Below, piece after piece: positions 1-58,857 of a stretch of 64,000 nt of DNA (position 1 is the first letter of the stretch; each line of letters starts with the position of its first letter). The stretch lies in the IMG/VR virus record IMGVR_UViG_3300031576_000032, positions 6,188-70,187 of that record; one strand, written 5' to 3'. This stretch comes from a virus. Below the pieces are notes generated by a model, which saw nothing but the letters and a program-made list of their open reading frames with translations, did no database searches and was not told the origin of the DNA. Both the position numbers and the translations under genes were made by a program.

Positions 1-1587
1 CGATAACGCCCCGTCGCGGGTCGGAAACGGTCCCCCGAACGCCCGGGACAGGTCCCAATCGGAAGGCTCCCATTCTTCGAACCTCCGACGCCGTCCTAGG
101 ATCGTCTTTACCCATCCGCGCTCGTTAGCTCGGTCCGACGCGACCCGTAGCGTGTTCCGGGCGAATGGGAACGCGGCGTAGTATTTGTCGAGGAACCCTT
201 GGGCCTCATCGACCGGGAGCTTCAGTTGCGCTGCGGTTTTCTTCGTTCCCATCCCGTAGATCACCCCGAAGTTAATCGTCTTCGCTTTCTGCCGGCCTGC
301 TTTTCCGACAAGTCCCGCACGGTCCGCGCACTGCTGATGAAAGTCGATCTTCGGGTTCTTCTGATACTCCGACCGGAACTCGGCCGCGCCTTCTCCCAAA
401 GCATAATGAGAAAAAATCCTAAATTCTGCCTGGTTGTAATCGGCCTTCCCCCAGTCGCATCCCTCTTCTGGGATAAAGATCGATCGGCACAAAGGGCCAA
501 GGACCGCATCGCGTGCCGGGATGAACTGAAGGTTTGGATGGGACGACGAGAACCGTCCCGTAACGGTCCCATACTCGTCGGACTTCATCGGGTTAAACGA
601 CCCGTGGATTCTTCCGTCGACGAGTTGCTCCTGCATCTGCCCGACAAGAAACGTCGAGATGAACTTATCGGTTCCGCGACACTCAAGGATCATCTTCGCA
701 ACGGAATGATTTACCGTCTCGAGCCACGGCTTCGTGAACGACGGGGCATCGGTTTTCGGGGTGCGTGGGTACGGTATACCCAAAGAATCGAACATCCCCC
801 CGAGCTCCCGCGCGTTCCATACGGAGATGTTTTTCCCCGCGATTGCGTCGAGCCCGGCCTTCGTCTCGACGAGTTTCTTCCGAAACGCGACGATCGAGTC
901 GTCAAGTTTCTTCGTATCGATCCGCACCCCGTTCTGCCTCATCCGAAGAACGAGAGGAAGTAGACGCGACTCAAGGTCGAATAGTTCGGTCATCCCCTCC
1001 GCCGCGAGCAACTTCTCCTGAAGAGGAAGAATCTTTAACGGAAGAAGAACGTCCTGGATCGCGTACTTCGCGACGACGGACCCAGGGAGTCGCCAGAGGT
1101 GTTTCTTCGGATCGCCCTTGTATCCCCGCCGCGCGCATTCTTGCGTTATCTCATCCTCGGCCTTCGACTCGCCCTCGAGGTACCGAACCGAGATATCCCC
1201 GAGGTTGTAGAACCCCTGAAGATTTTCGTTCACCAAAGGTTCAGCGATCTGTACATCCGCCCACGGGCCAACGATTTTCACTCCGGCCTTCTCGAGGTAG
1301 TCAAAATCGTAGAGAAGGTTCGCGCCGACTTTCCGCTGCGACTTCCGACCGAGTTCACGGCCGAGCCACTTGAGGACTTTTTTCGGGTCGAGGTTCTCGC
1401 CGTCCTCGTGTCGGATCGGGTAGTAGTTTGAGAACCCGTCGTCGGTCGCTACCGCGACGCCTGCGATATACCCATCGCGATACGTCCCCGGACCTTTCGC
1501 TACGAGGTCGTCGTCTCGCGTCTCGATGTCCACCGCGATTAATTTTGCAGACGATAAATCGGGAAACAGGTTATCGACCTTCTTCAA
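1..1587 (-). CDS. polA: DNA polymerase family A with 3'-5' exonuclease domain (3' end beyond window edge)
   Basis: Hand translation (not in ORF track): TTG at 1587 overlaps the upstream TGA; MKKVDNLFPDLSSAKLIAVDIETRD (Exo I), TVTGRFSSSHPNLQ, motif A DYNQAEFRIFSHY, motif B RQKAKTINFGVIYGMG. Confidence 0.93.
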   Translation of the reverse strand, partial: MKKVDNLFPDLSSAKLIAVDIETRDDDLVAKGPGTYRDGYIAGVAVATDDGFSNYYPIRHEDGENLDPKKVLKWLGRELGRKSQRKVGANLLYDFDYLEKAGVKIVGPWADVQIAEPLVNENLQGFYNLGDISVRYLEGESKAEDEITQECARRGYKGDPKKHLWRLPGSVVAKYAIQDVLLPLKILPLQEKLLAAEGMTELFDLESRLLPLVLRMRQNGVRIDTKKLDDSIVAFRKKLVETKAGLDAIAGKNISVWNARELGGMFDSLGIPYPRTPKTDAPSFTKPWLETVNHSVAKMILECRGTDKFISTFLVGQMQEQLVDGRIHGSFNPMKSDEYGTVTGRFSSSHPNLQFIPARDAVLGPLCRSIFIPEEGCDWGKADYNQAEFRIFSHYALGEGAAEFRSEYQKNPKIDFHQQCADRAGLVGKAGRQKAKTINFGVIYGMGTKKTAAQLKLPVDEAQGFLDKYYAAFPFARNTLRVASDRANERGWVKTILGRRRRFEEWEPSDWDLSRAFGGPFPTRDGALS

Positions 1588-2069
1588 CGATCATCGCCTT
1601 CTTTTGATTCATCCTCGATCGTCCAGGGGATACCAAGCGATGTGAACAACTCCTTCGACCTCTTCGACTTTTGATAGTCGATCTCCGCGTGGACGGCGAC
1701 GATCCCAACGTTAACGAGAAGCTTCGCGCAGTCGTAGCACGGGAACGCGGTGCAGTACACTTCGGCCCCGTCGATTGGCGGACCGTGCCGCGCGGATTGC
1801 GCGACCGCGTTCGCTTCGGCGTGGACGGTCCGGACACAGTGAGCAGTTTCTTTATACACGATCTGATCGGAGATAGTTGCTCGTTGTTCTATTTCGTGTC
1901 CGACGTCGTCGCAATGAGGCGCCTTCGACGGGGACCCCGAGAATCCAGTCGCAAGGACTCGTCCGTCGCGGACGAGTATCGCACCTTTTTTCCCTCGGTT
2001 ACACGTCGACCGATCCATCACCGCCCGGACGATCGAAAAGTAATATTCCTTCCGCGTCGACCGATTCAA
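1584..2069 (-). CDS. dCMP deaminase (cytidine/deoxycytidylate deaminase family)
   Basis: RSTCNR..GAILVRDGRVLATG, HAEANA and PCYDC Zn motifs; probable TTG start at 2069 overlapping the upstream stop (TTGA); ORF-track N-terminal extension is likely spurious. Confidence 0.9.
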   Translation of the reverse strand: MNRSTRKEYYFSIVRAVMDRSTCNRGKKGAILVRDGRVLATGFSGSPSKAPHCDDVGHEIEQRATISDQIVYKETAHCVRTVHAEANAVAQSARHGPPIDGAEVYCTAFPCYDCAKLLVNVGIVAVHAEIDYQKSKRSKELFTSLGIPWTIEDESKEGDDR

Positions 2070-2794
2070 AATATGTTCCTCCCTTCGAGGTCCTTCGCGA
2101 ACGCGTGAAGCGATCCGATGAAATGGACGAACCGCGACGGCGTCGCATTGATTTCCGATGCGACGTGTTGAAGAAGCCGAGTCGTCAGGTAAACATCCGA
2201 TGCGAAGAACTTCATGAAATCGCACGACCTTTGGTTGTAGATCAATGTCAGGTTCCCGTTCCGGAGGACGAATTGGTACGATATCGAGCACGGCACCCGG
2301 TCGCGCCCGCCCCAGTTCATCATGTCTTGGTGGACGTCGTACATCGTCATAATCGCTTGCCGGGTCGTCGGACGACGTTTCAACTCGTCGATGACGTACG
2401 GAAGTTGCGCTTGCCATCTCTCTCCGTACGAGTAAGAGAACTTCCCGTCCCGAATAAACTTTCCCCATTTCCCTGAGTCGAGTTTCCAGGATTCCCCAGG
2501 ATTCAATGGTCCCCGGGGACCAGCGTTTTCCCGAGTTCCAAGGAGCCGTTCGACCTCTTCCCGTTTTGCCCATTCAACGTTCCCGTTCAGATACTTCATC
2601 ATCTGCTCAAGCCGGACGTTATCAAACGAGGCCGTCAAGGAGTAAGCGTAACCTGTCAGTTCGATCGCTCGGTACCCGGGATCGTCCCCAACGAATTTGT
2701 CTTGCACGGTCTCGGTGTGGTACCGGACACCCATTTCAAACAGGTCCCGCTCGACCTCCTTCACCATCTCGACGGGGTTCTGGTAGATCCTCAT
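2066..2794 (-). CDS. Thymidylate-synthase-fold enzyme, probably dCMP-specific (hydroxy)methyltransferase
   Basis: TRQAI, catalytic PCS, YNQRSCDF, GSLHAF; Asp (FASD) at the position of E. coli TS Asn177. Confidence 0.8.
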   Translation of the reverse strand: MRIYQNPVEMVKEVERDLFEMGVRYHTETVQDKFVGDDPGYRAIELTGYAYSLTASFDNVRLEQMMKYLNGNVEWAKREEVERLLGTRENAGPRGPLNPGESWKLDSGKWGKFIRDGKFSYSYGERWQAQLPYVIDELKRRPTTRQAIMTMYDVHQDMMNWGGRDRVPCSISYQFVLRNGNLTLIYNQRSCDFMKFFASDVYLTTRLLQHVASEINATPSRFVHFIGSLHAFAKDLEGRNIF

Positions 2795-3678
2795 CGCGTC
2801 GCCTTGTCCTTCCGGAACACGAGGATCGTCTGGTACAGCGGCGGCTTCTTCCCCGTCTTCTTCTCGTACGTGTTGAGGAACATCGTCGTTGGGTAATGTC
2901 TCAAGATCGCCGTTCCCTCGTGCGTAAGCCCGAGTTCGGTTAGGAGATCCCCGATCTTCACGTGAAGAAGAAACGGCTCGCCCTTACGCATCATATCCTT
3001 GACAGAGACGACGAACCGGCCGTTCTTCTTCATCCGGGCGATGCACTTCTGGTAAATGTCTCGGATCGCGGCCCAGTACGCGTCGTTCTCCCGAAGGAGG
3101 CCGAGGTTCGCATACCGTTTGTCGTACCTCATCTCCTTCGGTTGTTTCTTCATATCTTTTTCGGCATATCCGAAGAAGCTCTCTCGGACGTCCCCTGAGT
3201 ACGGCGGGTTGTTGACGACGAGCGAGAACCGAGGAAGATCCGCGATCACCGACTCGATCTCTCGGGCGTCTCGGTGAACGACCCGGAACTTCGCGCCATT
3301 CGAGACCGCGGCGGCGCGGGCGAGGTTCGCTTCGACGACGTCGAAGAACTCGATCTCACACCCCGCCGCGTTCCGGCCCATCCGGAGCGCCTCGACGGGA
3401 GTCGTTCCCGCCCCGACCATCGGATCGAGGACCCAGTCGTTCTTTTTCGTAAACGTCTGGATCGCCCACCGAGCGACATGGAGCGGCGTCTTCGCCGGAT
3501 GCTTCTTTTCGATCGGATCGTAAAACGATTTCCTCTCGAGCCGGGAGTAGTTCCGTCCGTCAGGACGAATCAGCTCCCCGAGAAACGGCTTCGAGTATTT
3601 GCTAACGCCGACGTAGTCCGTCGGCATATTCGGTCCGGCGTTCAATAACTGGACCGGTTCGATCTCGTTCTTGTCCAT
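2791..3678 (-). CDS. N4-cytosine/N6-adenine type DNA methyltransferase-like protein
   Basis: HPAKTP, SAM-binding VLDPMVGAGTT, catalytic NNPPY. Confidence 0.8.
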   Translation of the reverse strand: MDKNEIEPVQLLNAGPNMPTDYVGVSKYSKPFLGELIRPDGRNYSRLERKSFYDPIEKKHPAKTPLHVARWAIQTFTKKNDWVLDPMVGAGTTPVEALRMGRNAAGCEIEFFDVVEANLARAAAVSNGAKFRVVHRDAREIESVIADLPRFSLVVNNPPYSGDVRESFFGYAEKDMKKQPKEMRYDKRYANLGLLRENDAYWAAIRDIYQKCIARMKKNGRFVVSVKDMMRKGEPFLLHVKIGDLLTELGLTHEGTAILRHYPTTMFLNTYEKKTGKKPPLYQTILVFRKDKATR

Positions 3679-3690
3679 CCGCTCCCTCCC

Positions 3691-5211
3691 TTAAAAGTTC
3701 GACAACACCTTTCCCGACGGGACCGACGGGACCGACGGGACCGACGGAACGATCGGCGCGGGTTTCACATCTCTCGGCTTCGGTTGTGGTTTCTTCGGTT
3801 CAGCCGGAACTGGCGGAGTCTCCAGGGGGACCTTTCTCGGTCGTCCCCGGCCGCGCTTAGGAATCGACTGGAACTCCGCGACGGACACCGCGGCGCGTTC
3901 GACCTTCGGCCTCCGTTCTTTCTTCGGCTTAGGCGGTTTGTACGTCGGATCGATCGCGTTATCCCAACGCGTCAAGTCCTCGGGTTCGACTCTCATCGGC
4001 AGGTGGCACCGAAATAGCATCGTGCACTCTTCGCACGCTTTCGGTTGATTCGAGTACCCGACGTTTTCGCAGTACCACTGTTTCGCGTCGTCGACATATC
4101 GGTCGGGCGGCAAAAATCGATGTCCCGACGACTCGAACTTCACACCGTTGATATGAGCGGCGATCTGTTTTGCGATGTACGCGTTGAACTGGACGGGCAT
4201 CGCTTTCCCCGTCTGCTTTACGATCGTCGCATCTTTCGTGTGGTTCCATTCGCCTTTCTCGTTCAGGATCGTCCCGTAGAAGATGAAGTCGTCGGGGAAC
4301 CCCTGGATTCTCGCGCGCTCGCGGATCGTATACGGAAGGCACCGCTCCCCGTGGATCGCCGGAGCGCCCCCGGTTAGGACCGCCGCGTGCCCGTCCCAGT
4401 GATTCCGGTATGTCCCGATCCGTTTCTTGTAGGACCCGTCTGCCGTCTGGTACGGAAGGACCGTCCCGGGACGGCCGTCCTTAAAGAACTTCTGGACCTC
4501 GCGCCACGTCGCCTTCTCCCCGCGTTTCGAAAAATGCATCGCTCGGTCACATCGTCCATCGAGGACGTGAGGGTCATGATTCGGAATCGAATGGCTCCCC
4601 TTCTTTTGGGGATCGGGGAGATCCCCGATAAGAGTCTGGACCGTTTCCTTGTTGTCATACTCCCCGGGCCGAAACGCGAACTTCTCCTTCTTCAGCGCCC
4701 CGATCAGGAAGAACCGCTTTCGAAACCGTTGGACGTTTCCGTAATGAAAGTTCGACACCCACTCAGGGAACAGATCGTACTCCGGAAGAAGCGACGCATA
4801 CTTCTCCATCGAGAACGCGATGAACGATTTCGGAAGATCGTCCATCACGAAAAACCTCGGCTTCACCCGCGCGACGAGATCGACGAACAAAGGAATGTCC
4901 CCGGGGTCGTCGCCACGGTTCGAATTCATTCCATCGAGTTGCGAAAAGTTCCCGCACTCTGGGTGTCCGAAAGCAACGTCGATCGTCGGTAACGCCGGGG
5001 CCTCCTCGATCGAATGGACAAAGAACGCCCCCGGGAAGTTCTCAAGAAACGTATTCTTCCCGTCCTTGTCTTTCTTGTGGTAGTACTTCCGCCACTCGAT
5101 ATTTCCGAGGACCTCGAAACCCCCCATCCGCGCTCCGACTAACATTGAACCGATCCCGCACGTTAACCCAACCGCCTTCAACTTCTCAATACTCGGCGGT
5201 TTCCTCGGCAT
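3691..5211 (-). CDS. Atypical C5-cytosine DNA methyltransferase-fold enzyme
   Basis: Motif I GLTCGIGS, IV GHPECGNFS, VI MDDLP (normally ENV), VIII QRFRKRFFLIG, IX RERARIQGFPD, X QTGKAMPV (normally GNA/GNS); Cys cluster and AT-hook in C-terminal tail. Confidence 0.8.
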   Translation of the reverse strand: MPRKPPSIEKLKAVGLTCGIGSMLVGARMGGFEVLGNIEWRKYYHKKDKDGKNTFLENFPGAFFVHSIEEAPALPTIDVAFGHPECGNFSQLDGMNSNRGDDPGDIPLFVDLVARVKPRFFVMDDLPKSFIAFSMEKYASLLPEYDLFPEWVSNFHYGNVQRFRKRFFLIGALKKEKFAFRPGEYDNKETVQTLIGDLPDPQKKGSHSIPNHDPHVLDGRCDRAMHFSKRGEKATWREVQKFFKDGRPGTVLPYQTADGSYKKRIGTYRNHWDGHAAVLTGGAPAIHGERCLPYTIRERARIQGFPDDFIFYGTILNEKGEWNHTKDATIVKQTGKAMPVQFNAYIAKQIAAHINGVKFESSGHRFLPPDRYVDDAKQWYCENVGYSNQPKACEECTMLFRCHLPMRVEPEDLTRWDNAIDPTYKPPKPKKERRPKVERAAVSVAEFQSIPKRGRGRPRKVPLETPPVPAEPKKPQPKPRDVKPAPIVPSVPSVPSVPSGKVLSNF

Positions 5212-5855
5212 TAGTACTCGCTCCGTTGCCGGAACCTATTGACTTCGGACTTCTTGAAGTACAACTCGAACACGGCATCCGCAGACATCCCGACGGTCCA
5301 AGACAGAAGACCAAGTCGCCCGACTGACTGGACGACGAGATCCTCAAACTTGTCTACGTCGGTTGAAACGTGCGACTGTTTCCACGGTTTATTCTTCAAG
5401 CAGTTCATCGCGAGGCCGAGGGTTTCGACGACCTTCCACGCAGAAAACATCACGACCGTTTCGCTATCCAACCCGGTATTTTTCCCCGGAATAATGATAT
5501 CGAGACGATCTTTTCCGAGGTTATCGTCGACAACGTCGGCCGGGCCGAGTCCGATCTCGATCACGAGTTCGACGAGAAAATGCCAGGCGTCGGCGACTTC
5601 CTCCTTACAGTGGACGGGATCAGCCATCGACTCAATCGCTTCGGCGAGTTCCTCAGTTACTCGCCAGGCCAGATCTTTCAGGAAGTATTGGCATTTCGGG
5701 TCGTCGATATGAAACGTCGCGGGTAGAATCCCCCGACCGATCCCGGCTTTTCCCTCGATCTCGCTGTACTTCTTCGACAATTCCCGCTGCCGGTCGAAAA
5801 TCATCTCGAGCCGGTCGCCTGTCGGCTCGGGGGCGGTCGCGTCGTTCACGTTCAT
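5211..5855 (-). CDS. Dimeric all-alpha NTP pyrophosphatase (dUTPase/dCTPase/MazG-like)
   Basis: EELAEA..EEVADAWHF acidic motifs, KNKPWK, C-terminal YFKKSEVNRFRQRSEY; ATG at 5855 overlaps upstream stop (ATGA). Confidence 0.8.
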   Translation of the reverse strand: MNVNDATAPEPTGDRLEMIFDRQRELSKKYSEIEGKAGIGRGILPATFHIDDPKCQYFLKDLAWRVTEELAEAIESMADPVHCKEEVADAWHFLVELVIEIGLGPADVVDDNLGKDRLDIIIPGKNTGLDSETVVMFSAWKVVETLGLAMNCLKNKPWKQSHVSTDVDKFEDLVVQSVGRLGLLSWTVGMSADAVFELYFKKSEVNRFRQRSEY

Positions 5856-7219
5856 GTCGCGTAGGCCTTTCTGAAGGCGTCGATACACGCCATTCGCCAC
5901 TCGATCTTCTTCTCCCCCCTGGACCCTTCGATCTTCAGGGGAACCTTCTCACGATGTAGAATAGAAAGTGGAACGATGTCCGCGAACGCTTCCTTCAATA
6001 CTTCTTTGTGTTTCCTGCGTTCCCACGGGAGCGCGAGCGCGTAGTTCACGATCGGAAGGGCGAGGAACGGGCACCGGAGTTCGACCATCGAGAACATCAT
6101 CGTCCGGTCAAGCCGGGGGAGGTGGTAGTGGATCAACTCGTGAAACACGTCGGACTTTTGCGAGTCATACTCGGCCGTGCGACGGTATCCTCCGAACAAC
6201 TCGTCGGCCCCGTCCCCGGAAAGGACGACGTCAACCCCGGATTCTCGAACGGCCTTTCCTAGGTCGATTTGGGCCATCACCGAGCCGAGATCGACGGGGC
6301 ACTGGTGGATTTGAACCGCGACTTCTTTTTCGATCTCGACTGGTCGGTTGATCGCGATCATCTCGATTTCGCTTCCGGGGAACCGAAAGTCCAGATGTTT
6401 TAGGAAGTCGGCTTCGTCGTTCTCAACATGAAAGACTTTGAAGTCGGTCCGGACCTTCTTCATCATCTCGAAAACGATCGTTGAGTCGAGTCCGCCGGAA
6501 AGAAGAACCCCGACCGGAACATCCGACACCATTCGATTTCGGACAGACTCCTCGACGGCCGCACGAAGGTCCGTTCCAGTTGGGTATAACCCAAGTCCAT
6601 ACTGGTACGATTCCTTAAGCCGTCCGAACTCATCGTAGACTAGGATCGATCCAGGCGCAATCGAATGGATCTCGTTCCAGGGAGTCGACCGATCGTAACA
6701 ATATCCGAACCGCGCGACCCCGCCGAGGTACGTTTCGTTCAACGTCGACGGCCCGGCCTCGAGCAAAGGATCGATCTCGGACGATATCGCAAGCGCCGGA
6801 AGCGTTCGGTAGTAAAGCGGCTTCTTCGCGAGCGGATCGGTCACGACCGTAACGGTCTTCTTCGACGTGTCAATGAATACAAACGACCAGAACCCGTCGA
6901 ACCCGGCAAGACATTTCGGTCCAAACTTCTCCCACATCGCGAGGACGACGGCGAGGTCGTTCTTCGCCGCCGGGTCATACTTTCGGAAGTTGAACACTTC
7001 CCCGACCATCAACCCATACAGGTTCTTCGTACCGTGACGCATCGGCTGGTCGAACGTCTCGCTCAGCCCTTGAATCGGGAGCCGGGCGTGCGAGACGTAT
7101 ACGAGACCCGGTTGGAAGAACCTCGCGGTCGTCGTCCGTTTCCCCCGGTGCTCCAACTTTGCGGCCATCCTTTCGATGACGGATTTGTCTTTCCCAAAAT
7201 AGACGTTAATCCCGCACAT
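5852..7219 (-). CDS. Asparagine synthetase B-like glutamine-dependent amidotransferase / amide ligase
   Basis: N-terminal MCGI (Ntn Cys), HARLPIQG, GEVFNF, PP-loop LLSGGLDS, SGDGADELFGGY. Confidence 0.92.
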   Translation of the reverse strand: MCGINVYFGKDKSVIERMAAKLEHRGKRTTTARFFQPGLVYVSHARLPIQGLSETFDQPMRHGTKNLYGLMVGEVFNFRKYDPAAKNDLAVVLAMWEKFGPKCLAGFDGFWSFVFIDTSKKTVTVVTDPLAKKPLYYRTLPALAISSEIDPLLEAGPSTLNETYLGGVARFGYCYDRSTPWNEIHSIAPGSILVYDEFGRLKESYQYGLGLYPTGTDLRAAVEESVRNRMVSDVPVGVLLSGGLDSTIVFEMMKKVRTDFKVFHVENDEADFLKHLDFRFPGSEIEMIAINRPVEIEKEVAVQIHQCPVDLGSVMAQIDLGKAVRESGVDVVLSGDGADELFGGYRRTAEYDSQKSDVFHELIHYHLPRLDRTMMFSMVELRCPFLALPIVNYALALPWERRKHKEVLKEAFADIVPLSILHREKVPLKIEGSRGEKKIEWRMACIDAFRKAYAT

Positions 7220-7694
7220 AACCCAGAACCGTCATCCCTCTCCTCTTCAGGTTCTCGATCACGACGTCATATCTCATCGCGATTCGGACGATCTTATCCG
7301 ACACGACTTGAACGTGATTGTCTGGTTTGTAGCCTTTTTCGGACGACAGCCGCGCAAGCTTCTCACGAGCGTGAGCAATTAACGTATCGACCGACGGCCG
7401 GCAGTACACGACGAAGAACCCTTTCTCAACGAACCGCCGGGCCGTGTCGTCGATCTCTGATTGCTCGACAAGAAGTCCGTTCCGGACGACCGATCCGTAC
7501 ACTTGTTCGGAGATGAACGACGCCCGGTCAAGGACTTTCCCGTACCCCCGGAACTGCGTCGCGAACCGACCACGAAGGTCCTCCGCGTCCTTAGGCGGAC
7601 CTCCGGCGTGGATAATCTCGAGCCCGTGCTTACCGGCGAGGATCTTCGCGATAGTTGATTTCCCGGCCCCGTCGGGGCCTTCGATTATGATCAA
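7206..7694 (-). CDS. Deoxynucleoside monophosphate kinase (thymidylate-kinase-like)
   Basis: MIIIEGPDGAGKST P-loop, LDR motif. Confidence 0.82.
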   Translation of the reverse strand: MIIIEGPDGAGKSTIAKILAGKHGLEIIHAGGPPKDAEDLRGRFATQFRGYGKVLDRASFISEQVYGSVVRNGLLVEQSEIDDTARRFVEKGFFVVYCRPSVDTLIAHAREKLARLSSEKGYKPDNHVQVVSDKIVRIAMRYDVVIENLKRRGMTVLGYVRD

Positions 7695-16860: not shown

Positions 16861-17021
16861 CTTCCGCTTCCAACTTCCATCGCAATATAGGAGAGAAAGA
16901 ATAGAACTGAAGCTTTCCAAGCACGGTCTTCCTGAAAAATTAACCAAACACCAAAACAAAAGGAACCTGCTAACCCATGAATGACGAACGATAAATCGAG
17001 AATAAATCGGGGAGAAATCAT
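16857..17021 (-). CDS. Small two-TM membrane protein
   Basis: Two hydrophobic stretches; ATGA overlap with helicase stop. Confidence 0.5.
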   Translation of the reverse strand: MISPRFILDLSFVIHGLAGSFCFGVWLIFQEDRAWKASVLFFLSYIAMEVGSGR

Positions 17022-18508
17022 GGCTTCATCACCGCGTCCGCTAGCGACTTCGCCCCGAGAAGAACGTCTCGGATTCTTTCGTCGACCGTCCCGGCGCACT
17101 CGAGATCGACGTACGTCACGGAATGCTTCGTCCCGATCCGGTGCGCGCGGTCCTCGGACTGATACCGCTGCTCGTAGCTGAACGTGTTCGAGTAATAGAA
17201 CACCGTCTCCGCCGCGGTTAGGGTGACGCCGATTCCGGATTGTTGTTGCCCGACGAGGAACCGGACGCGGACGTCTTCCTGGAACGCCTGAACGTTGAAG
17301 TCTCGTTTATCCCCTACAATCCCTCCATGAAGTTCGACAACGGCCTCGCTTCCAAACTTCTCTTTAAGCCCGACCGTTATCGCTTCAATCTCCGTCCGGA
17401 ACCGAGCCCAGATAATCGCTTTCCCGGGATAGTCCTCAGATACAAGATCGATCAGCGCGTCAAGTTTCGGGTTTCCCCCTGGAACGGGCTTAACTTCGAT
17501 CTTTCCAGGGGTATACGCGACTTCGATCGCGTCGAGATCGACTTCGCCTTCTTGGATCGTGACGGTCGCCGGGACGAACCCTCCGAGAATTTGCTGGCAC
17601 CGAAGGAGCCGGACGATTTGAAGGTTAGCAAGAACTTCGAACGAGTCGAAGACGATTTCCCCGTCCTTCATAAGGTCGGCGTACATCTTCTTCTGTTCCG
17701 GCGTCATCTCAACGGCGACCCGTTGGTAGATCTTGTCGGGGATATCGAGACATTCGGCTTTCGTTTTCCGGTAAGAGTGATTCTGAATCTTCGACTTCAG
17801 TTCGTCGAGGCGGACGTACTTAACGAGTTCCTCGTAGGCTCTCGAAGCGCCCGCGGCCCGCGTGTACTGTTTCTCGAACACTCCGTACTGGTGTTTGAAC
17901 CCGTAGAACGACGTAAAACCGAGCACCGACGGGTCTAGGAATCGAAACTGAGCGAACAAGTCAAACGGCGTCTGCGTAACCGGGGTCCCGGTCATCGCGC
18001 GCCGGAACTTCGCGCGCTTCCCTAATAGGATCACCCGGCGCGTACGCTGCGACGTCGGGTTTTTGATTCGGCTCGACTCGTCGACGACCATCAGCGACTT
18101 TCGCTCGAGGAGGAACTTCTCGGCGGCGTCGAACGCTTGGCCCCGGTTTGAAAACGCTTCGACATTAATACAGAATATCGCGAGGTCCTTCGACTTTAGG
18201 AGTTCTTTCCAAGCCTTCCGCCAACGGTCCGTTTTCGCTTTCCCGGGGTCCCACTCGAGAACTTTGTAATCGCACCCAAGATGAATAGGGATCTCGACCC
18301 GGGGCCAGTTCCGATACACGACTTTCGGCGCGACGACGAGGACCCCATCGATACGGCCGGCAGCGAATAGAAGCCCGGCGGTGTCTAGAGCGATCTTCGT
18401 TTTACCGAGACCTTGTTCGAGAAAAATCCCGAACGCCTTTCGATCCCACGAAAGGTTTAAGCACTCGGTTTGATGGTCGTAGGATTTCGTTTTCTGTTTG
18501 TATTTCAC
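17018..18508 (-). CDS. SNF2-family (SF2) helicase
   Basis: EQGLGKT, VVDESSRIKN, MTGTPV, GIGVTLTAA, QSEDRAHRIG. Confidence 0.93.
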   Translation of the reverse strand: MKYKQKTKSYDHQTECLNLSWDRKAFGIFLEQGLGKTKIALDTAGLLFAAGRIDGVLVVAPKVVYRNWPRVEIPIHLGCDYKVLEWDPGKAKTDRWRKAWKELLKSKDLAIFCINVEAFSNRGQAFDAAEKFLLERKSLMVVDESSRIKNPTSQRTRRVILLGKRAKFRRAMTGTPVTQTPFDLFAQFRFLDPSVLGFTSFYGFKHQYGVFEKQYTRAAGASRAYEELVKYVRLDELKSKIQNHSYRKTKAECLDIPDKIYQRVAVEMTPEQKKMYADLMKDGEIVFDSFEVLANLQIVRLLRCQQILGGFVPATVTIQEGEVDLDAIEVAYTPGKIEVKPVPGGNPKLDALIDLVSEDYPGKAIIWARFRTEIEAITVGLKEKFGSEAVVELHGGIVGDKRDFNVQAFQEDVRVRFLVGQQQSGIGVTLTAAETVFYYSNTFSYEQRYQSEDRAHRIGTKHSVTYVDLECAGTVDERIRDVLLGAKSLADAVMKP

Positions 18509-19866
18509 GTCGCCCCTTTCGCGGACGAACGGAAGTTTACACCACCGCCGCGTCTTTGTAAACTCTTTTTTACGAATCGGAGGACGGAAGCGACCGCGCG
18601 CCCGGCGTTCCGACCGAACCGCGCCGCGGCTTCGTCCGCGCCCCGCGTTTCTGCGGGCCTCGTGCGGCCGAAGCCGGGGGGTCGCGGGTCCGAACGCGGC
18701 CGGAACCGGGAGGCCAGGGGGGAATTACGGACTACCCCCTGGCGACTCCGGTCGTCGACCGCGCCGACTCGAAACTCGGGGGGATCGACTCTTACCTTTA
18801 TCGTCGGCGTCGGGCTTCCCTGTTCATCAAGAAACGAAACAAGCGCGTGGCCGATTCGAAGGACGGAGATTTCGGTCGCTGGGTCTAGGCTCTTCCCGCG
18901 CGGCATCGTATCGGCCGCAGCCTTAATCGCGCGCCAATCTTTAGGCGTCGCGGCCCGCATCGCATGTTGTACCCGCGAACCAAGCTGCCCGAGAACGACG
19001 GACGGTAAGTCGCTTGGCGACTGAGTACAGAACCAGACGCCGACAGACTTCGACCGGATGATTCTTACGATTCGTCCTATCCGATCGACGAGCGGTCTCG
19101 GCGCGTCTTCAAATAGGAGATATGCTTCATCAATAAACATCGCGAGTTTAGGAATCGCGAGGTCCCCGACTTCAGGGAGATTCTCGTACAAGTCCGAAAG
19201 AATCCACGTCATCACCGTCGCGTATACCCGAGCGTTCTTTACGAGGTTGTCCGCGACGAGGACCGTAACGAACCCTTGCTCGTCATCGGTCTGTAGAAAT
19301 AGGTCGTCCCGCGCGATCGACTTCGGTCCGAAAATCAATCCGCCGCCATCGGCTTCAAACGTAGCGATTGACCTTCGGATCGCAGCAACCGTCGCGCTCG
19401 ATACGAGACCGTGATCGATCGAGACAGACTTCCGTTCCTCGTCGACAGACCGAAGGACTTCTTGTACGTCCTTCAACGTATCGAAAGGGAGGTTTTCGTC
19501 GGCGGCGTACCGAAACGCGACGCCGAGAACGTCGGCTTGAACGCCCGTGACGCCGATCGTGCGGGCGAACAACCCCGCCCCGAACCGGCGGACCGGCACC
19601 CGGAACGGATGGCCGCGCTTACCTTCGGGGTCCCAAAACACAGTCGGTAACGGTCGCGCACCGGAGCAAACTCCGGCAACGTCGCCCTTTACATCGGGAA
19701 CAAACGTCGGGACTCCGGCCCGCGACAATCCTTCGACGAGACGCATCATCGAAACGGTCTTCCCCGCGCCCGTAGCGCCAGCGATTAACCCGTGCCGGTT
19801 CGCGCGGGCCAGGGGGAGCGACGCTTCGGTTCCCTTATCGTCGCGGCCGAGGACGATATACGTCAT
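18505..19866 (-). CDS. HerA/FtsK-superfamily ATPase, DUF853 (YjgR-like)
   Basis: NRHGLIAGATGAGKT, DVKGDVAG, FIDEAYLLF, RSKSVGVWFCTQSPSDLP..LGQLGSRVQHAMRA. Confidence 0.88.
   Translation of the reverse strand: MTYIVLGRDDKGTEASLPLARANRHGLIAGATGAGKTVSMMRLVEGLSRAGVPTFVPDVKGDVAGVCSGARPLPTVFWDPEGKRGHPFRVPVRRFGAGLFARTIGVTGVQADVLGVAFRYAADENLPFDTLKDVQEVLRSVDEERKSVSIDHGLVSSATVAAIRRSIATFEADGGGLIFGPKSIARDDLFLQTDDEQGFVTVLVADNLVKNARVYATVMTWILSDLYENLPEVGDLAIPKLAMFIDEAYLLFEDAPRPLVDRIGRIVRIIRSKSVGVWFCTQSPSDLPSVVLGQLGSRVQHAMRAATPKDWRAIKAAADTMPRGKSLDPATEISVLRIGHALVSFLDEQGSPTPTIKVRVDPPEFRVGAVDDRSRQGVVRNSPLASRFRPRSDPRPPGFGRTRPAETRGADEAAARFGRNAGRAVASVLRFVKKSLQRRGGGVNFRSSAKGAT
18534..18562 (-). promoter_or_regulatory. 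Sigma70-like promoter upstream of SNF2 helicase
   Basis: TTTACA-N17-TAAACT. Confidence 0.55.
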
Positions 19867-43536: not shown

Positions 43537-44217
43537 GTGCCAGCGACGCGTCTCGAGAGAGTCCTTGGTCCGGGAGGGAAGCGAGCGACCCTCGTTTCGT
43601 CTCACAAGGCGTGGATCGTTCCGCGAATCTGGCCCGAGTCGACTGTCGCGATCCTCGGCGGGGGGCCGTCGCTTCCGTCGGCTGAGGATCTCAAGAAGAT
43701 TCCGCTTTCATGGAAGACGATCGCGGTCAACATGGCGTTTCGGTCCGCGCCATTCTCTGACGTTTTGTTCTACGGAGATCCCCATTTCCCGTCGATCACT
43801 CGTGCGACGGACGGCCCGACGATCGACGATTTCGCGGGGCTCGTTGTCACGCGCGTCGCTCCGGGAGATGGGAGCGCGATGTTCGTCGCGTGGGAGTCGG
43901 GGATCGATGGGATATCGAAAGATCCGACGCGACTTCGATGGAACCGATCGAGCGGCGCGTGCGCGATCGGACTCGCGCGGCATTTCGGCGCGAAGAGGAT
44001 TGTCCTTTTTGGGTTCGACATGCGAATCGTCGACGGGAGGAAGAACTTCCATTCGTGGTATGGACGCGATTTGAAGAATCCATTCGAACAAATGCTCGAA
44101 CCGTTCGGCGCGATTGAACGAGACCTTCACGAGGAACAGATCGAGTGCATTAACGCGACGCCGGGTTCTGCGATTCGATCACTCCCGATTGTTGACCCGG
44201 TGAGCCTCTTCGTATGA
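43537..44217 (+). CDS. DUF115/MptE-like Rossmannoid protein (glycosyltransferase-associated)
   Basis: VAILGGGPSL, IAVN, SSGACAI, GAKRIVLFGFDM, INATP. Confidence 0.7.
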   Translation: MPATRLERVLGPGGKRATLVSSHKAWIVPRIWPESTVAILGGGPSLPSAEDLKKIPLSWKTIAVNMAFRSAPFSDVLFYGDPHFPSITRATDGPTIDDFAGLVVTRVAPGDGSAMFVAWESGIDGISKDPTRLRWNRSSGACAIGLARHFGAKRIVLFGFDMRIVDGRKNFHSWYGRDLKNPFEQMLEPFGAIERDLHEEQIECINATPGSAIRSLPIVDPVSLFV

Positions 44218-44870
44218 ACGTCGTCTGCGTCCTGAAATCGGGCGGGGACTATGACGTCGGCGACGTCGAGAACTTGTCCCGGCAGATCCGGAAGAACTTG
44301 GACGTCGGCGCGATCTTCTGTTTGACCGACGTCCCGTTCGACATCTCAAGGTTCGAGAAGACGGGGATCGTTGTCGTGCGACTCAAATCAACGTGGCCCG
44401 GATGGTGGGCGAAGATGGAACTGTTTTCGATCCCCGGGCCGGTCCTTTACTTCGACCTCGACACGGTGATCGTTAGCGACCTTGCCCCCCTGGTGACGGC
44501 GATCGATGCGATTGGTCGCGACCGGATTTTAATGCTCCGGAACTTCTACGACCCGTCTCCGGGTTCCGGAATCATGGGATGGAACGGAGATTTCTCGTCG
44601 ATGTTCCGGCAATTTCAGGCTGCGGTCGAGACCGGGGACTTTTTGAAGCGGGGCGATCGGTGGACGTTTACTCACGACGGGAAAACGTACCCGGGGGATC
44701 AAAACTGGATCGCGGCGCGGCTTTCCGAGTCGAAGAGGGTCCCAGTGTTTGCCCAAGACGTAGTCGACGGGATCGTTAGCTACAAAGTCGGGTCTGTCGA
44801 AAAGAACGGGCTTCCTCCTGGAGCGCGGATCGTTGTGTTTCATGGGAAACCCCCCGGCCGTGGGAATTGA
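44214..44870 (+). CDS. Glycosyltransferase (GT-A, GT8-like)
   Basis: VCVLKSGGDY, GWWAKMELF, LYFDLDTVI (DxD), GDQNWI, IVVFHGKP. Confidence 0.8.
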   Translation: MNVVCVLKSGGDYDVGDVENLSRQIRKNLDVGAIFCLTDVPFDISRFEKTGIVVVRLKSTWPGWWAKMELFSIPGPVLYFDLDTVIVSDLAPLVTAIDAIGRDRILMLRNFYDPSPGSGIMGWNGDFSSMFRQFQAAVETGDFLKRGDRWTFTHDGKTYPGDQNWIAARLSESKRVPVFAQDVVDGIVSYKVGSVEKNGLPPGARIVVFHGKPPGRGN

Positions 44871-44892
44871 ATCCGGTTCCAGTGTGGATAAC

Positions 44893-45687
44893 ATGACGCC
44901 GCTTTGGTTTTTCTGGGGTCAGAAGCGAATGTCGTTCTTGCGGTACATGACGCTCCGTAGCGCGTGCGATGTTCACGCCGATGTGCGGATTATTGTTCGC
45001 GATGAGGAGCTTCGGCCAGCCGTGAAGTGGGTAGAGTCTCAGGACTTCATGAACAATGACGATGGTGCCGACTGGATGGCGGAGGCGATGAAACTGCCAA
45101 TCAGGGTCCACGATCTCCGTGAGATCGCGCCCGTGCTATCCGACCTTCGGGCGCCAGACGTCCAGACGAGCGACCTGCTCGCTTGGTGGATCCTCGCGAC
45201 GATCGGCGGAACGGTCTGCGATATGGACATCGTGTTCCTGAAGCCGCTCCCGGAGATTATCGAGAACGTTGAGGTCGCGCGTTGGGAGCGCGATGTCCAC
45301 CGATATGATTACCTTCCGATCGGATACATTCAGGGTCGACCACACGACAAGTGGCGTGACGCGTATGCGAAGGCGCTTGCGGCATATGATCCGAACGTGT
45401 ACCAGTCGTGCGGTGGCGAAAACCTCAAGCCGTGGCCGGAGGCCCGACTAAGCCCGTTCGTCGTGTACCCTTGGGCCGGGGCGGTCTACCGGCAGATCCT
45501 GGACTATTGCTTCAAGACGACTCACTGGCCGCCACTACCCGTCGCGTGCGTTGGGGTCCACTGGTACGGCGGTGCGTGGCAATCTGAGAACGCGCGGATC
45601 AACGGGCCGGACGACCTTGAAGCGGGTGCCGTCTCGTGGGCGATCAAGACCGTCCTCGCCGGTTCAGAAGTGGTGGTGCCGCGATGA
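44893..45687 (+). CDS. Glycosyltransferase (DxD, GT32-like)
   Basis: WFFWG..YMTLRS, SDLLAWWILATIGGTVCDMDIVFLKP, GVHWYGG. Confidence 0.75.
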   Translation: MTPLWFFWGQKRMSFLRYMTLRSACDVHADVRIIVRDEELRPAVKWVESQDFMNNDDGADWMAEAMKLPIRVHDLREIAPVLSDLRAPDVQTSDLLAWWILATIGGTVCDMDIVFLKPLPEIIENVEVARWERDVHRYDYLPIGYIQGRPHDKWRDAYAKALAAYDPNVYQSCGGENLKPWPEARLSPFVVYPWAGAVYRQILDYCFKTTHWPPLPVACVGVHWYGGAWQSENARINGPDDLEAGAVSWAIKTVLAGSEVVVPR

Positions 45688-46466
45688 GAGTCTCCGTCGT
45701 TAACTTCTGCTCGACGGCACTTGAGATGCTCAAGTTTTCCACCGAGTCGCTTCTTGAGAACGCGGGGACTGGCGATTTTGATTATCTCGTCGTGACGTGG
45801 AATCCCAGCCCAGAGGTCGAGGCTTGGCTCGATGCGCAGCCATCGATTTATCGCGCTCGGTACCAGACGGACAACTCGTTTGACTATGTTCCGAATCTCC
45901 GGAAGATGATGAGCTATGGGTTCAGCGAGGGCTATCAACTCAACGACTACGTCGTCATCGTGAACACGGACATGGCATTCGGCGAGTGTTGGCTTGAGAA
46001 TCTCGCCCGCCGCGCCGATGAGGACGTGATTCCCAATTCGGTCCACGTTACTCCAGTCGAGTCACCGTTCGTCGTCGTCGCAAATTTCGGCATCCCGACG
46101 CGCGAGACGTTCGATATGGCGCGCTGGGAAAAACTTCACGACAAGCTCCTCACTTCGGCAAAGAATGATGCCATCGCGCGTGGTTTGGACATGGTCCAGA
46201 CACCCGAGGATCGTGGCGGCGACTGGCGGTCGTGTGCGACGATGCCGTATGTCCTTCATAGGAAATGGTGGGAGCGGTTCGGCCCCTGGGAACCGAACCT
46301 CGATGGGCAGAAGGAAGCACCAGATCGGAGGTTCTTTGGTCGATGCCACGACGGTGGGGCGAAGTTCGTTCTCTGCTTGGATTCGATCTGTTATCATCAT
46401 GAAGCAGTAGAGCGACGCGGGTCGTGTCGGCCGATCGGGGTCGAGTCGATGAAAGCGGGGTTGTAG
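45684..46466 (+). CDS. Glycosyltransferase-like protein (GT2-like)
   Basis: YVVIVNTDMAF..WLENL, WERFGPW, PDRRFF, ICYH. Confidence 0.65.
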   Translation: MRVSVVNFCSTALEMLKFSTESLLENAGTGDFDYLVVTWNPSPEVEAWLDAQPSIYRARYQTDNSFDYVPNLRKMMSYGFSEGYQLNDYVVIVNTDMAFGECWLENLARRADEDVIPNSVHVTPVESPFVVVANFGIPTRETFDMARWEKLHDKLLTSAKNDAIARGLDMVQTPEDRGGDWRSCATMPYVLHRKWWERFGPWEPNLDGQKEAPDRRFFGRCHDGGAKFVLCLDSICYHHEAVERRGSCRPIGVESMKAGL

Positions 46467-47846: not shown

Positions 47847-47848
47847 CG

Positions 47849-48133
47849 ATGGTTGAACCGGTATACGACTTCATTTGCTCGATCGGGGAGCTGATCGACA
47901 AGCTTTCGATTGAGAACATCAAGTGTTATGATGCGAACACAAGAGCGATTGCTGAAAGGAAGAAGACTGACCCGAGTGCGACGGTGATCGCCGATTGTGA
48001 AGGACAGGCCCGATCGTCGGGGGAACAGCGGGTCCGGCTTAAGAACGAAATAAATAGGCGACTCGCCGAAGCTATTGAGCGTGGTAAGATAAGGCACGCG
48101 GCGGAGACGCGGACATATCGGAGGGAATCGTAA
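47849..48133 (+). CDS. Small helical protein
   Basis: SIGELIDKLSIENIK..RVRLKNEIN. Confidence 0.65.
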   Translation: MVEPVYDFICSIGELIDKLSIENIKCYDANTRAIAERKKTDPSATVIADCEGQARSSGEQRVRLKNEINRRLAEAIERGKIRHAAETRTYRRES

Positions 48134-48141
48134 GGAGACCG

Positions 48142-58831: not shown

Positions 58832-58857
58832 ATGCGGAAGGTGAGAGAGGCGTAGGG

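What the first reader, a model, noticed from the sequence alone, without database searches (positions are those of the whole stretch)
3691..7219. C5-MTase with natural motif X Asn>Lys next to an asparagine-synthetase-like ligase: candidate carboxymethyl/carboxamidomethyl-cytosine pathway
Seen: motif X reads QTGKAMPV instead of GNA/GNS, motif IV is PEC rather than PPC, and motif VI is DDL rather than ENV. An AsnB-like enzyme lies two genes upstream in the same translationally coupled operon. Established: the engineered Asn>Lys change in M.MpeI (N374K) and E. coli Dcm (N436K) lets C5-MTases use carboxy-SAM to make 5-carboxymethylcytosine, and AsnB enzymes amidate carboxylates using ATP and glutamine. 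From memory, a phage carboxymethylation-then-amidation route (CmoX/CmoY) has been reported, so novelty may lie in this variant. Inference: 5-carboxymethyl-C then amidation. No CmoA-like carboxy-SAM synthase is visible here, and the ENV>DDL change could mean a different base or chemistry.
Basis: partly seen in the sequence, partly recalled or inferred. Interest (0 to 1): 0.85.

Follow-up and report, generated by a model that had tools for sequence, protein, structure and literature searches.

The report
Lysine-type cytosine transferase in phage cassette
An uncultured phage carries a cytosine-methyltransferase look-alike with an unusual lysine beside an asparagine-synthetase-like enzyme, both part of a widespread, untested gene set that probably builds a new modified cytosine for the phage DNA.

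Summary
The gene at 3691-5211 (-) has a C5-methyltransferase fold but reads GHPECG, DDL and QTGKAMP in motifs IV, VI and X. Its Lys336 aligns with E. coli Dcm N436 and with Arg350 of the phage carboxymethyltransferase CmoX. A glutamine-dependent AsnB-like ligase lies two genes upstream in a translationally coupled operon.

The proposed carboxy-SAM route is only partly supported.
- No CmoA was found in this contig, in 10 related contigs (5 of them 92-100% complete) or in 96 related loci. The same searches found the validated phage CmoA.
- The Lys/Arg-type enzyme always travels with a thymidylate-synthase homologue. This homologue has Asp at N177 (the dCMP type), keeps D169 and has an invariant Arg at L143. 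That signature matches no tested class (PMC13326640).
- An NTP pyrophosphatase, a dNMP kinase and a dCMP deaminase recur with them in many, not all, of these loci.

Most likely this is an uncharacterised cassette for hypermodifying cytosine at C5, with the transferase and the amide ligase as its late steps. The donor of the side chain is unknown, and host carboxy-SAM is not excluded. The scan has noted this cassette before in other genomes.

The parts
7206..7694 (-). P-loop dNMP kinase-like gene, first gene of the cassette
   Evidence: N-terminal P-loop with weak hits to cytidylate, thymidylate and dNK kinases. PHROG 761 thymidylate kinase E 1.2e-11. Overlaps the AsnB-like start by 14 nt. Inferred role: phosphorylates the modified dNMP.
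5852..7219 (-). Glutamine-dependent AsnB-like amide ligase (455 aa)
   Evidence: Pfam Asn_synthase 1.6e-40, GATase_6/7. TIGR01536 scores 213.8 bits, below its 267.1 cut-off. Cys2 (MCGI) and PP-loop SGGLDS at residue 241. PDB: E. coli AsnB 7.2e-22. 25.8% identical to TurkishDelight gp124. Shares only the PP-loop with SpCmoY.
5211..5855 (-). All-alpha NTP pyrophosphatase (dUTPase_2/MazG-like)
   Evidence: Pfam dUTPase_2 4.6e-6. PHROG 12184 nucleotide pyrophosphohydrolase 7.6e-26. The likely start is the ATG at 5855, overlapping the AsnB-like stop as ATGA; the ORF listing gives a GTG at 5900. A dCTPase role is inferred, not shown.
3691..5211 (-). C5-MTase-fold, Lys-type cytosine transferase (506 aa)
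   Evidence: PF00145 1.1e-16. TIGR00675 scores 43.5 bits, below its 100.65 cut-off. The family has 98 representatives at E<=1e-30.
4951..4968 (-). Motif IV GHPECG: catalytic Cys86 preceded by Glu85 (canonical Pro) and followed by Gly87 (canonical Gln)
   Evidence: Inteins in homologues sit exactly between E85 and C86.
4834..4842 (-). Motif VI DDL in place of ENV
4195..4215 (-). Motif X QTGKAMP; the Lys336 codon is at 4204-4206
   Evidence: K336 aligns with Dcm N436 and with SpCmoX R350.
4006..4071 (-). C-terminal four-Cys cluster (C381, C393, C396, C402)
   Evidence: The four Cys are invariant in 33 of 33 homologues. Coordinates. A zinc-binding role is inferred.
3832..3858 (-). AT-hook-like KRGRGRPRK in the disordered basic tail
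   Evidence: pLDDT is below 50 from residue 437. Calling this string an AT hook is from recall.
2791..3678 (-). N6/N4 DNA methyltransferase (NNPPY)
   Evidence: PF01555 1.6e-19. Fused to the Lys-type transferase in several homologues (PF00145+PF01555).
2066..2794 (-). Thymidylate-synthase homologue of an untested class (N177D, D169 kept, L143R)
   Evidence: PF00303 6e-15. All NCBIfam TS equivalog models score below their cut-offs. C169, R166, D192 and D200 are invariant in 38 of 38. hhalign to EcThyA has probability 98%. The best folds are the HY126 dCMP hydroxylase 9iqc/9iqu, MilA and T4 dCH.
1584..2069 (-). dCMP deaminase
   Evidence: PF00383 1.3e-16. PHROG 174 6.4e-36. The TTG start overlaps the TS-like stop as TTGA.

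Best explanation
Region 3691-7219 is the middle of a seven-gene, translationally coupled phage cassette that most likely makes a C5-hypermodified cytosine without phage-made carboxy-SAM.

Shown:
- the genes, their motifs and their conserved linkage;
- the absence of CmoA.

Inferred, step 1: the nucleotide-level enzymes feed a 5-substituted dCTP into phage DNA. These are the Asp-177, Arg-143 thymidylate-synthase homologue, the NTP pyrophosphatase, the dNMP kinase and the dCMP deaminase.

Inferred, step 2: the C5-MTase-fold enzyme works on DNA at specific sequences. It keeps the Cys nucleophile, the GxG loop and the motif II acid for an adenosyl cofactor. Its pocket around C5 is rebuilt (Glu85, Gly87, Asp124-Asp125, Lys336). 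It installs or extends a C5 side chain whose carboxyl group is held by Lys336.

Inferred, step 3: the AsnB-like enzyme adenylates that carboxyl and amidates it with ammonia from glutamine, leaving a carboxamide.

The identity of the side chain and of its donor is open.
For: 1. The family-wide signature is conserved: HPECG, MDDLP and TGK-MP are invariant in 33 of 33 homologues.

2. Linkage among the 56 viral loci of this group:
- a TS-like gene is present in 52;
- an AsnB-like gene is present in 39;
- the genes stay adjacent in rearranged orders (L039, L040, L045, L047, L049).

3. The TS-like gene carries Asp at N177 in every locus and in 38 of 38 aligned sequences. It is not simply the phage's dTMP synthase:
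- L075 also has ThyX;
- L041 also has a trimeric dUTPase;
- its L143R, D169, N177D signature fits none of the methyl, hydroxymethyl or hydroxyl classes (sections 24 and 28 of PMC13326640).

4. In loci without AsnB the pyrophosphatase, the transferase and the TS-like gene are directly adjacent.

5. None of the 40 loci whose transferase has ENL or ENV in motif VI has a TS-like or AsnB-like hit. These 40 include the six with canonical PPCQ or PC[QT], ENV and GNAVP motifs.

6. No CmoA was found:
- G000;
- 5 contigs 45-85% complete;
- 5 contigs 92-100% complete, four with terminal repeats;
- 0 of 96 loci by tblastn.
Positive controls: SpCmoA is found at 2.5e-34, and 83 phage records are found with EcCmoA.

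7. Action on DNA is supported by:
- fusions to an N6/N4 DNA MTase;
- a variable target-recognition region, 34-36% identity against 62-64% in the core, also lower between tandem paralogues;
- a four-Cys cluster and a basic tail.

8. The AsnB-like protein keeps Cys2 and the PP-loop at every locus where these positions could be mapped. The PP-loop mapped in all 36 AsnB-like genes, reading SGGxDS in 35 and SSGLDS in one. The N-terminus mapped in 30 of 36, with Cys2 in 29.
Against: - No enzyme of this family has been tested, and no cultured phage carries it. The best match in 50,697 phage records is 27% identical.
- No natural C5-MTase-fold enzyme is known to work on an already 5-substituted cytosine. 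The in-vitro side reactions of C5-MTases on 5hmC and 5caC are recalled from memory, not checked here.
- The only documented role of a cationic residue at this motif X position is binding the carboxyl of carboxy-SAM. That favours the rival explanation.
- The linkage could partly reflect shared ancestry of related phages.
- The association between the residue before the Cys (E/D) and the presence of AsnB is concordant in 48 of 48 rows. It rests on only 2 changes on the tree and 1-2 independent pairs, so it is not significant.
- Whether the pyrophosphatase removes dCTP, and whether dC is fully replaced, is not shown.
Confidence: 0.4

Rival explanations
1. The Lys-type transferase takes carboxy-SAM made by the host's CmoA and puts a carboxymethyl group on unmodified cytosine at specific motifs. 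The AsnB-like ligase then amidates it to 5-carbamoylmethylcytosine. The thymidylate-synthase kit would be a separate nucleotide-supply module.
For: - K336 aligns with CmoX R350 and Dcm N436.
- Cationic residues at this site give carboxy-SAM use in M.MpeI and M.CviPI (passages of PMC13288465), and R350 binds the carboxymethyl group in the CmoX crystal structure (PMC12783734).
- The residue after the catalytic Cys is small both here (Gly) and in CmoX (Ser), against Gln in Dcm.
- An AsnB-type ligase is adjacent, as in S-B43 and TurkishDelight. TurkishDelight gp124 is glutamine-dependent and is the best cultured-phage match, at 25.8% identity and E 1.3e-29.
- SpCmoX alone worked in E. coli on host CmoA.
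Against: - CmoA was found in 0 of 11 contigs and 0 of 96 loci. It is adjacent in both cultured CmoX clusters.
- Carboxy-SAM is reported as 400-fold rarer than SAM in E. coli.
- If the host is an alphaproteobacterium, CmoA is uncommon there: 5 of 201 sampled genomes score over the cut-off, and 8 of 201 reach the score of the validated SpCmoA. The host guess rests only on the GTA-like tail and holin genes.
- The route does not explain the strict link to the Asp-type TS homologue, nor the changes in motifs IV and VI that CmoX lacks.
- The profile match to CmoX is distant: 23% identity, E 5.9e-8.
Confidence: 0.25
2. The transferase is an ordinary sequence-specific 5-methylcytosine methylase that protects phage DNA. 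The Lys would be a tolerated family quirk. The AsnB-like enzyme would serve something else, such as asparagine supply or a nucleotide or cell-wall amidation, and the neighbourhood would be just an early-gene cluster.
For: - The Pfam and fold assignments are to C5-MTases.
- Engineered K/R variants keep methyl transfer from SAM.
- The gene sits beside, and in some homologues is fused to, an ordinary N6/N4 MTase.
- The co-occurring phages share polymerase, helicase and primase genes, so synteny may be inherited.
Against: - Five catalytic-pocket positions that are near-universal in C5-MTases are replaced and then held invariant across the family.
- The AsnB-like gene scores below the asparagine-synthase equivalog cut-off. 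It stays next to the transferase through gene-order changes.
- If dC is replaced at the nucleotide level, a plain C5-methylase would have no substrate.
- Loci with canonical MTases show no such partners.
Confidence: 0.15
3. The order of steps is reversed. The AsnB-like enzyme first amidates a small-molecule donor or a nucleotide. The transferase then handles an amide-bearing group, with Glu85 accepting hydrogen bonds from the amide.
For: - Within the TS-linked group the residue before the catalytic Cys is E or D in all 39 AsnB-positive rows, and also in L068 once its intein is read through.
- It is K, S or Y in all 9 well-flanked AsnB-negative rows.
- The AsnB-like gene sits among the nucleotide-level genes, between the kinase and the pyrophosphatase.
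Against: - The association amounts to 2 changes on the tree, with 1-2 independent pairs.
- I know of no precedent for an amidated SAM analogue; this is from recall.
- Five rows with short flanks were dropped before the count.
Confidence: 0.1

Closest known systems
CmoA / CmoX / CmoY of Synechococcus phage S-B43 (Yang et al., Nat Commun 2025, PMC12783734; PDB 8YF3)
   Same: - A C5-MTase fold with a cationic residue at the motif X Asn position; K336 aligns with R350.
- A small residue after the catalytic Cys.
- An adjacent PP-loop amide ligase of the asparagine-synthetase family.
- A phage DNA-protection context.
   Different: - Lys instead of Arg.
- HPEC instead of SPPC, and DDL instead of ENV.
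- Only 23% identity to SpCmoX.
- No CmoA anywhere.
- SpCmoY is 271 aa, has no glutaminase domain and ligates glycine. The ligase here is 455 aa with a Cys2 glutaminase domain and shares only the PP-loop with SpCmoY.
- This family is always linked to an Asp-type TS homologue.
- Yang et al. selected on SPPC plus R350, so by that rule this family is outside their set. I did not see their supplements.
Streptomyces phage TurkishDelight gp123-gp125 (NC_073473.1)
   Same: gp124 has the same glutaminase plus PP-loop architecture and is the best cultured-phage match of the AsnB-like protein (25.8% identity, E 1.3e-29). It lies next to a cationic-motif-X transferase.
   Different: - gp123 is a true CmoX relative: 37.5% identical to SpCmoX, with SPPC and GR motifs.
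- gp125 is a CmoA homologue (E 6.5e-24 to EcCmoA).
- ParB-like genes are present and there is no TS homologue.
- The cluster is untested. Whether gp124 belongs to the glutamine-type ligase cluster named in the paper is my guess.
Engineered carboxymethyltransferases M.MpeI N374K and M.CviPI Y205K/R (passages of PMC13288465)
   Same: A Lys or Arg at the homologous pocket position enables use of carboxy-SAM.
   Different: These are single substitutions in otherwise canonical enzymes that still methylate with SAM. Here four more pocket positions differ.
T4-type dCMP hydroxymethylase kit (gp42, gp56, gp1, cd) and the 5-hydroxy-dCMP synthases of RB69, DLP3 and HY126 (Lee et al., NAR 2026, PMC13326640; PDB 9iqc, 9iqu)
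   Same: A TS-fold enzyme with N177D sits beside an NTP pyrophosphatase, a dNMP kinase and a dCMP deaminase. This is pre-replicative supply of a C5-modified dCTP. The best fold matches are 9iqc and 9iqu.
   Different: - Position L143 is an invariant Arg, not Asp or Glu (hydroxymethyl class) and not Leu (methyl class).
- D169 is kept, so it is not the D169N hydroxylase class.
- The follow-up enzymes are a C5-MTase look-alike and an amide ligase, not the DNA glycosyltransferases of those systems. None lies in or beside this cassette. The window's two glycosyltransferase-like genes lie about 40 kb away in the virion module and were not followed up.

Membership tests
DNA cytosine-C5 methyltransferase (PF00145 / TIGR00675) | Overall fold and profile match | tested here: met
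   PF00145 scores 61.7 bits against a cut-off of 22. Foldseek gives prob 1.0 to M.HaeIII, M.HhaI and DNMT1. TIGR00675 scores 43.5 bits, below its 100.65 cut-off.
DNA cytosine-C5 methyltransferase (PF00145 / TIGR00675) | Motif IV Pro-Cys dipeptide with catalytic Cys | tested here: not met
   Cys86 is present and invariant, but the preceding residue is Glu85, not Pro, and the following residue is Gly, not Gln.
DNA cytosine-C5 methyltransferase (PF00145 / TIGR00675) | Motif VI Glu-Asn-Val | tested here: not met
   Asp124-Asp125-Leu126 align with ENV of Dcm and of CmoX.
DNA cytosine-C5 methyltransferase (PF00145 / TIGR00675) | Motif X Gly-Asn | tested here: not met
   Gly335-Lys336; the Lys aligns with Dcm N436.
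DNA cytosine-C5 methyltransferase (PF00145 / TIGR00675) | Cofactor loop FxGxG and motif II acid; motifs VIII and IX | tested here: inconclusive
   G19 and G21 are nearly invariant and R297, E298 and R299 invariant in A1; Q161, R164 and R166 are invariant in both A1 and A2; E39 is nearly invariant in A1 only. The stacking Phe of motif I is Thr or Cys here (TCGIGS).
CmoX (DNA cytosine C5-carboxymethyltransferase) | SPPC motif plus Arg at position 350 (the selection rule of Yang et al.) | tested here: not met
   The motif is HPEC, and Lys aligns with R350. The charge is conserved, the residue is not.
CmoX (DNA cytosine C5-carboxymethyltransferase) | A carboxy-SAM supply (CmoA) in the same genome | tested here: not met
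   0 of 11 contigs and 0 of 96 loci, with positive controls. A host supply was not testable.
CmoX (DNA cytosine C5-carboxymethyltransferase) | Carboxymethyl transfer from carboxy-SAM to DNA cytosine | not testable with these tools
   Needs an enzyme assay or nucleoside LC-MS.
CmoY / AMP-forming ligase on modified cytosine | PP-loop ATP-pyrophosphatase domain of the asparagine-synthetase family next to the transferase | tested here: met
   SGGLDS is present, and PF00733 scores 1.6e-40. The gene lies two genes upstream of the transferase, and an AsnB-like gene is present in 39 of 56 loci of the group.
CmoY / AMP-forming ligase on modified cytosine | Orthology to SpCmoY (glycine ligase, no glutaminase domain) | tested here: not met
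   Only the PP-loop aligns (E 4e-4). SpCmoY is 271 aa, the protein here is 455 aa with a Cys2 glutaminase domain.
Asparagine synthetase B (TIGR01536 equivalog) | Score over the curated cut-off; Cys2 nucleophile; PP-loop | tested here: inconclusive
   Cys2 and the PP-loop are met. The score of 213.8 bits is below the 267.1 cut-off, and NF006949 scores 160.7 against 499. It belongs to the family but is not an asparagine-synthase equivalog.
Thymidylate-synthase superfamily, product classes of Lee et al. 2026 | N177D, the dCMP substrate type | tested here: met
   D200 aligns with N177 and is invariant in 38 of 38.
Thymidylate-synthase superfamily, product classes of Lee et al. 2026 | L143 = Leu (methyl), Asp/Glu (hydroxymethyl), or D169N (5-hydroxyl) | tested here: not met
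   R166 aligns with L143 and D192 aligns with D169. Both are invariant in 38 of 38. None of the three tested signatures applies.

The most novel reading that the evidence does not exclude
This cassette makes a cytosine derivative not yet described. A new class of thymidylate-synthase homologue (Arg at the L143 position) supplies a 5-substituted dCMP. A C5-methyltransferase-derived enzyme uses covalent Cys catalysis on that already substituted base in DNA, or transfers a carboxyl-bearing group other than carboxymethyl from an adenosyl cofactor. A glutamine-dependent ligase then caps the group as a carboxamide. This would be the first natural use of the C5-MTase fold on a 5-substituted cytosine, and it would not depend on carboxy-SAM.
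Probability: 0.3. Interest if true: 0.9.

Novelty: new variant of a known kind. Interest (0 to 1): 0.72.

Why it matters
- Phage DNA hypermodifications defeat restriction and CRISPR defences. They have also supplied enzymes for epigenome sequencing; carboxymethyl transfer is already used that way (PMC13288465).
- This cassette is widespread in uncultured phages. The transferase family has 98 representatives at E<=1e-30, each standing for one cluster at 50% identity, and 517 homologues at E<=1e-5 among the 8000 candidates scored.
- It has no cultured member and no test in print that my searches found.
- It joins two known ideas, a T4-like modified-dCTP kit and a CmoX/CmoY-like transferase plus ligase pair, in a way neither explains.
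- Working it out would probably reveal a new DNA base, a new product class of the thymidylate-synthase fold, and a DNA-directed amide ligase that uses glutamine.

Tried and rejected
- phmmer of the whole protein and of residues 284-363 against PDB gave local alignments that stop before motif X because of a roughly 10-residue insertion. The Lys position was settled with hhalign to Dcm and with pairwise alignments instead.
- hhalign to SpCmoX also stops at residue 322.
- The class I methyltransferase at 46424-47128 was checked as a hidden CmoA and rejected. It has no TIGR00740 match, whereas SpCmoA scores 2.8e-33 in the same call, and BLASTP to SpCmoA gives E 0.006 over 58 residues.
- The genome-contig scan gave only 3 loci: a phage contig binned into a MAG, a short contig, and a 197-residue fragment in a 2.78-Mb alphaproteobacterial MAG contig with no cassette. 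No prophage host could be read from them.
- The window has no tRNA genes, so the host remains a guess.
- PADLOC gave only generic MTase models.
- The E/D-before-Cys versus AsnB covariation looked perfect but fails the test with independent pairs on the tree.
- PDB codes 9IQC, 9IQU and 9IR2 gave no relevant paper. The link came through the entry titles and a search for HY126.
- A look-up of earlier findings by sequence found nothing.
- No complex prediction was run, because I do not claim that the proteins bind each other.

Full report
**What the window is.** The window is part of a 70,187-base IMG/VR virus record estimated 82% complete. It carries terminase, portal and tail genes and a replication module. 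The finding lies in a run of minus-strand genes that ends at a family A DNA polymerase gene:
- a dNMP kinase-like gene (7206-7694)
- an AsnB-like gene (5852-7219)
- a dUTPase_2/MazG-like NTP pyrophosphatase (5211-5855)
- a C5-methyltransferase-fold gene (3691-5211)
- an N6/N4 DNA methyltransferase (2791-3678)
- a thymidylate-synthase homologue (2066-2794)
- a dCMP deaminase (1584-2069)

The junctions are ATGA, TAATG or TTGA overlaps, a 14-nt overlap, or a 12-nt spacer holding GGGAGGGAG.

**The observation.**
- The 506-residue protein matches PF00145 (E 1.1e-16). Its model (pLDDT 83.9) matches M.HaeIII, M.HhaI, DNMT1 and CmoX 8yf3 at probability 1.0.
- The motifs are TCGIGS, GHPECG, DDL, QRFRKRF, IRERARIQGF and QTGKAMP.
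- A profile alignment with E. coli Dcm is colinear through all motifs. It puts K336 on N436, E85 on the Pro of the PC dipeptide, G87 on the Gln after the Cys, and DDL on ENV. Its hhalign probability is low because the template is a single sequence.
- A pairwise alignment gives the same Lys-Asn match and puts K336 on R350 of SpCmoX.
- These are family traits. HPECG, MDDLP and TGK-MP are invariant in 33 of 33 homologues. QTGKAMP is in 111 and GHPECG in 110 of the 120 best homologues.
- The family has 98 representatives at E<=1e-30 in a library of 1.84 billion.
- No cultured phage has a close relative; the best of 10 hits is 27% identical.

**The AsnB-like protein.**
- It has Cys2, the PP-loop SGGLDS, and Pfam Asn_synthase plus GATase domains.
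- Its closest solved relatives are E. coli AsnB and TsnB9.
- It scores below NCBI's asparagine-synthase cut-offs.
- It shares only the PP-loop with SpCmoY, which is 271 aa and has no glutaminase domain.
- Its best cultured-phage match is TurkishDelight gp124 (25.8% identity, E 1.3e-29). gp124 lies between a CmoX-like gene (SPPC and GR motifs, 37.5% identical to SpCmoX) and a CmoA-like gene.

**What is published.**
- Yang et al. (PMC12783734; Results read in full) showed CmoA, CmoX (SPPC, R350) and CmoY (a glycine ligase) in phage S-B43.
- They noted an untested ligase cluster with a glutaminase domain. They found 4257 CmoA genes for 5615 CmoX.
- Their selection rule of SPPC plus R350 leaves out the family studied here.
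- Passages of PMC13288465 say that a cationic side chain at M.MpeI N374, or at M.CviPI Y205, enables use of carboxy-SAM. They also say such variants still methylate with SAM, and that carboxy-SAM is 400-fold rarer than SAM in E. coli.
- 'N436K' does not occur in that text.

**Test of the carboxy-SAM idea.** The CmoA model TIGR00740 finds nothing in:
- this record;
- five related contigs 45-85% complete;
- five more that are 92-100% complete, four of them with terminal repeats.

tblastn with E. coli and S-B43 CmoA finds nothing in 96 related viral loci. The methods do work: the model finds SpCmoA at 2.5e-34, and EcCmoA finds 83 phage records. The window's only class I methyltransferase is not CmoA-like.

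The tail and holin genes hint at an alphaproteobacterial host. In 201 sampled genomes of the class of an alphaproteobacterial MAG, 5 have CmoA over the cut-off. This host link is only an inference.

**What the transferase travels with.** I examined 96 viral loci.
- In the 56 loci whose transferase belongs to this group, a TS-like gene is present in 52 and an AsnB-like gene in 39. The four loci without a TS-like gene are short or cut at the transferase.
- The genes stay adjacent when their order changes (L039, L040, L045, L047, L049).
- The other 40 loci have ENL or ENV in motif VI. Six of them have canonical PPCQ or PC[QT], ENV and GNAVP motifs. None of the 40 has a TS-like or AsnB-like hit.
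- In loci without AsnB, the pyrophosphatase, the transferase and the TS-like gene are directly adjacent. L075 also has ThyX, and L041 also has a trimeric dUTPase. The TS-like gene is therefore not just the phage's dTMP synthase.

**The TS homologue.**
- C169, R166, D192 and D200 are invariant in 38 of 38 sequences.
- Against E. coli ThyA (hhalign probability 98%), R166 aligns with L143, D192 with D169 and D200 with N177.
- Lee et al. (PMC13326640; sections 24 and 28 read) tie N177D to dCMP. They tie Leu at L143 to a methyl product, Asp or Glu at L143 to a hydroxymethyl product, and D169N to 5-hydroxy-dCMP.
- The signature here (N177D, D169 kept, L143R) fits none of these classes.
- The model (pLDDT 92.4) is closest to the phage HY126 dCMP hydroxylase, then to TS, MilA and T4 dCMP hydroxymethylase.

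**Further clues.**
- The transferase probably acts on DNA at specific sequences. It is fused to N6/N4 MTases in several homologues. Its middle region is the least conserved, also between tandem paralogues in L004 and L007. It carries a four-Cys cluster and a basic tail.
- Within the TS-linked group, the residue before the catalytic Cys is E or D in all 39 AsnB-positive rows. It is K, S or Y in all 9 well-flanked AsnB-negative rows. Five rows with short flanks were dropped, and L068 was misread because of an intein.
- On the tree this association amounts to 2 changes and 1-2 independent pairs, so it is a lead and not evidence.

**Reading.** Its required donor has no genomic support, and it ignores the strongest partner, the TS homologue. 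My estimates are:
- 0.40 for a cassette that hypermodifies a TS-derived cytosine, with the transferase and the ligase as late steps;
- 0.25 for host carboxy-SAM;
- 0.15 for a plain methylase;
- 0.10 for the ligase acting first.

Earlier notes of this scan reached similar views on other genomes. I re-tested their main claims here. I found no paper on this family in my searches.

Noticed in passing
L068:10001-12103; L056:5923-8085; proteins P0022, P0033, P0043, P0082, P0088: Some homologues carry an intein with a homing-endonuclease-like insert. In L068 it sits exactly between Glu85 and the catalytic Cys86, reading SHPE, then the intein, then CGNFS. The catalytic Cys would then serve as the +1 splice residue.
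   Followed up: partly
window 43537-49122 (+): Inside the virion module lies a cluster with an MptE-like protein, a DXD glycosyltransferase-like protein, a class I methyltransferase, a GT2 glycosyltransferase, DUF4254 and a radical SAM enzyme. It may glycosylate virion proteins, or it could bear on the DNA modification. It is not CmoA-like.
   Followed up: partly
window 54549-62796 (+) and L001:987-1490: The tail genes are GTA-like: DUF2460, phiJL001 Gp84 N-terminal domain, BR0599, NlpC/P60 and Phage-tail_3. A GTA-type 3TM holin is also present. Together they hint at an alphaproteobacterial host.
   Followed up: no
L004:4422-6799 and L007:8827-11357: Two related phages carry tandem paralogues of the Lys-type transferase. 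The paralogues differ most in the presumed target-recognition region.
   Followed up: partly
L115 (NC_073473.1 87421-93606): Streptomyces phage TurkishDelight has two ParB-like genes, a CmoX-like gene, a glutamine-dependent AsnB-like gene and a CmoA-like gene in a row. This is a cultured candidate for testing the glutamine-type ligase.
   Followed up: partly
window 17018-19866 (-): An SNF2-type helicase and a HerA-like ATPase lie side by side in the replication module.
   Followed up: no
L075:9288-14827: A related phage has the Asp-type TS homologue and, about 4 kb away, a ThyX, a dCMP deaminase and a Tad2-like anti-Thoeris domain protein.
   Followed up: no
L001:2995-3522: An ECF-sigma-like gene lies in the 6 kb of the record that precede the window.
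   Followed up: no
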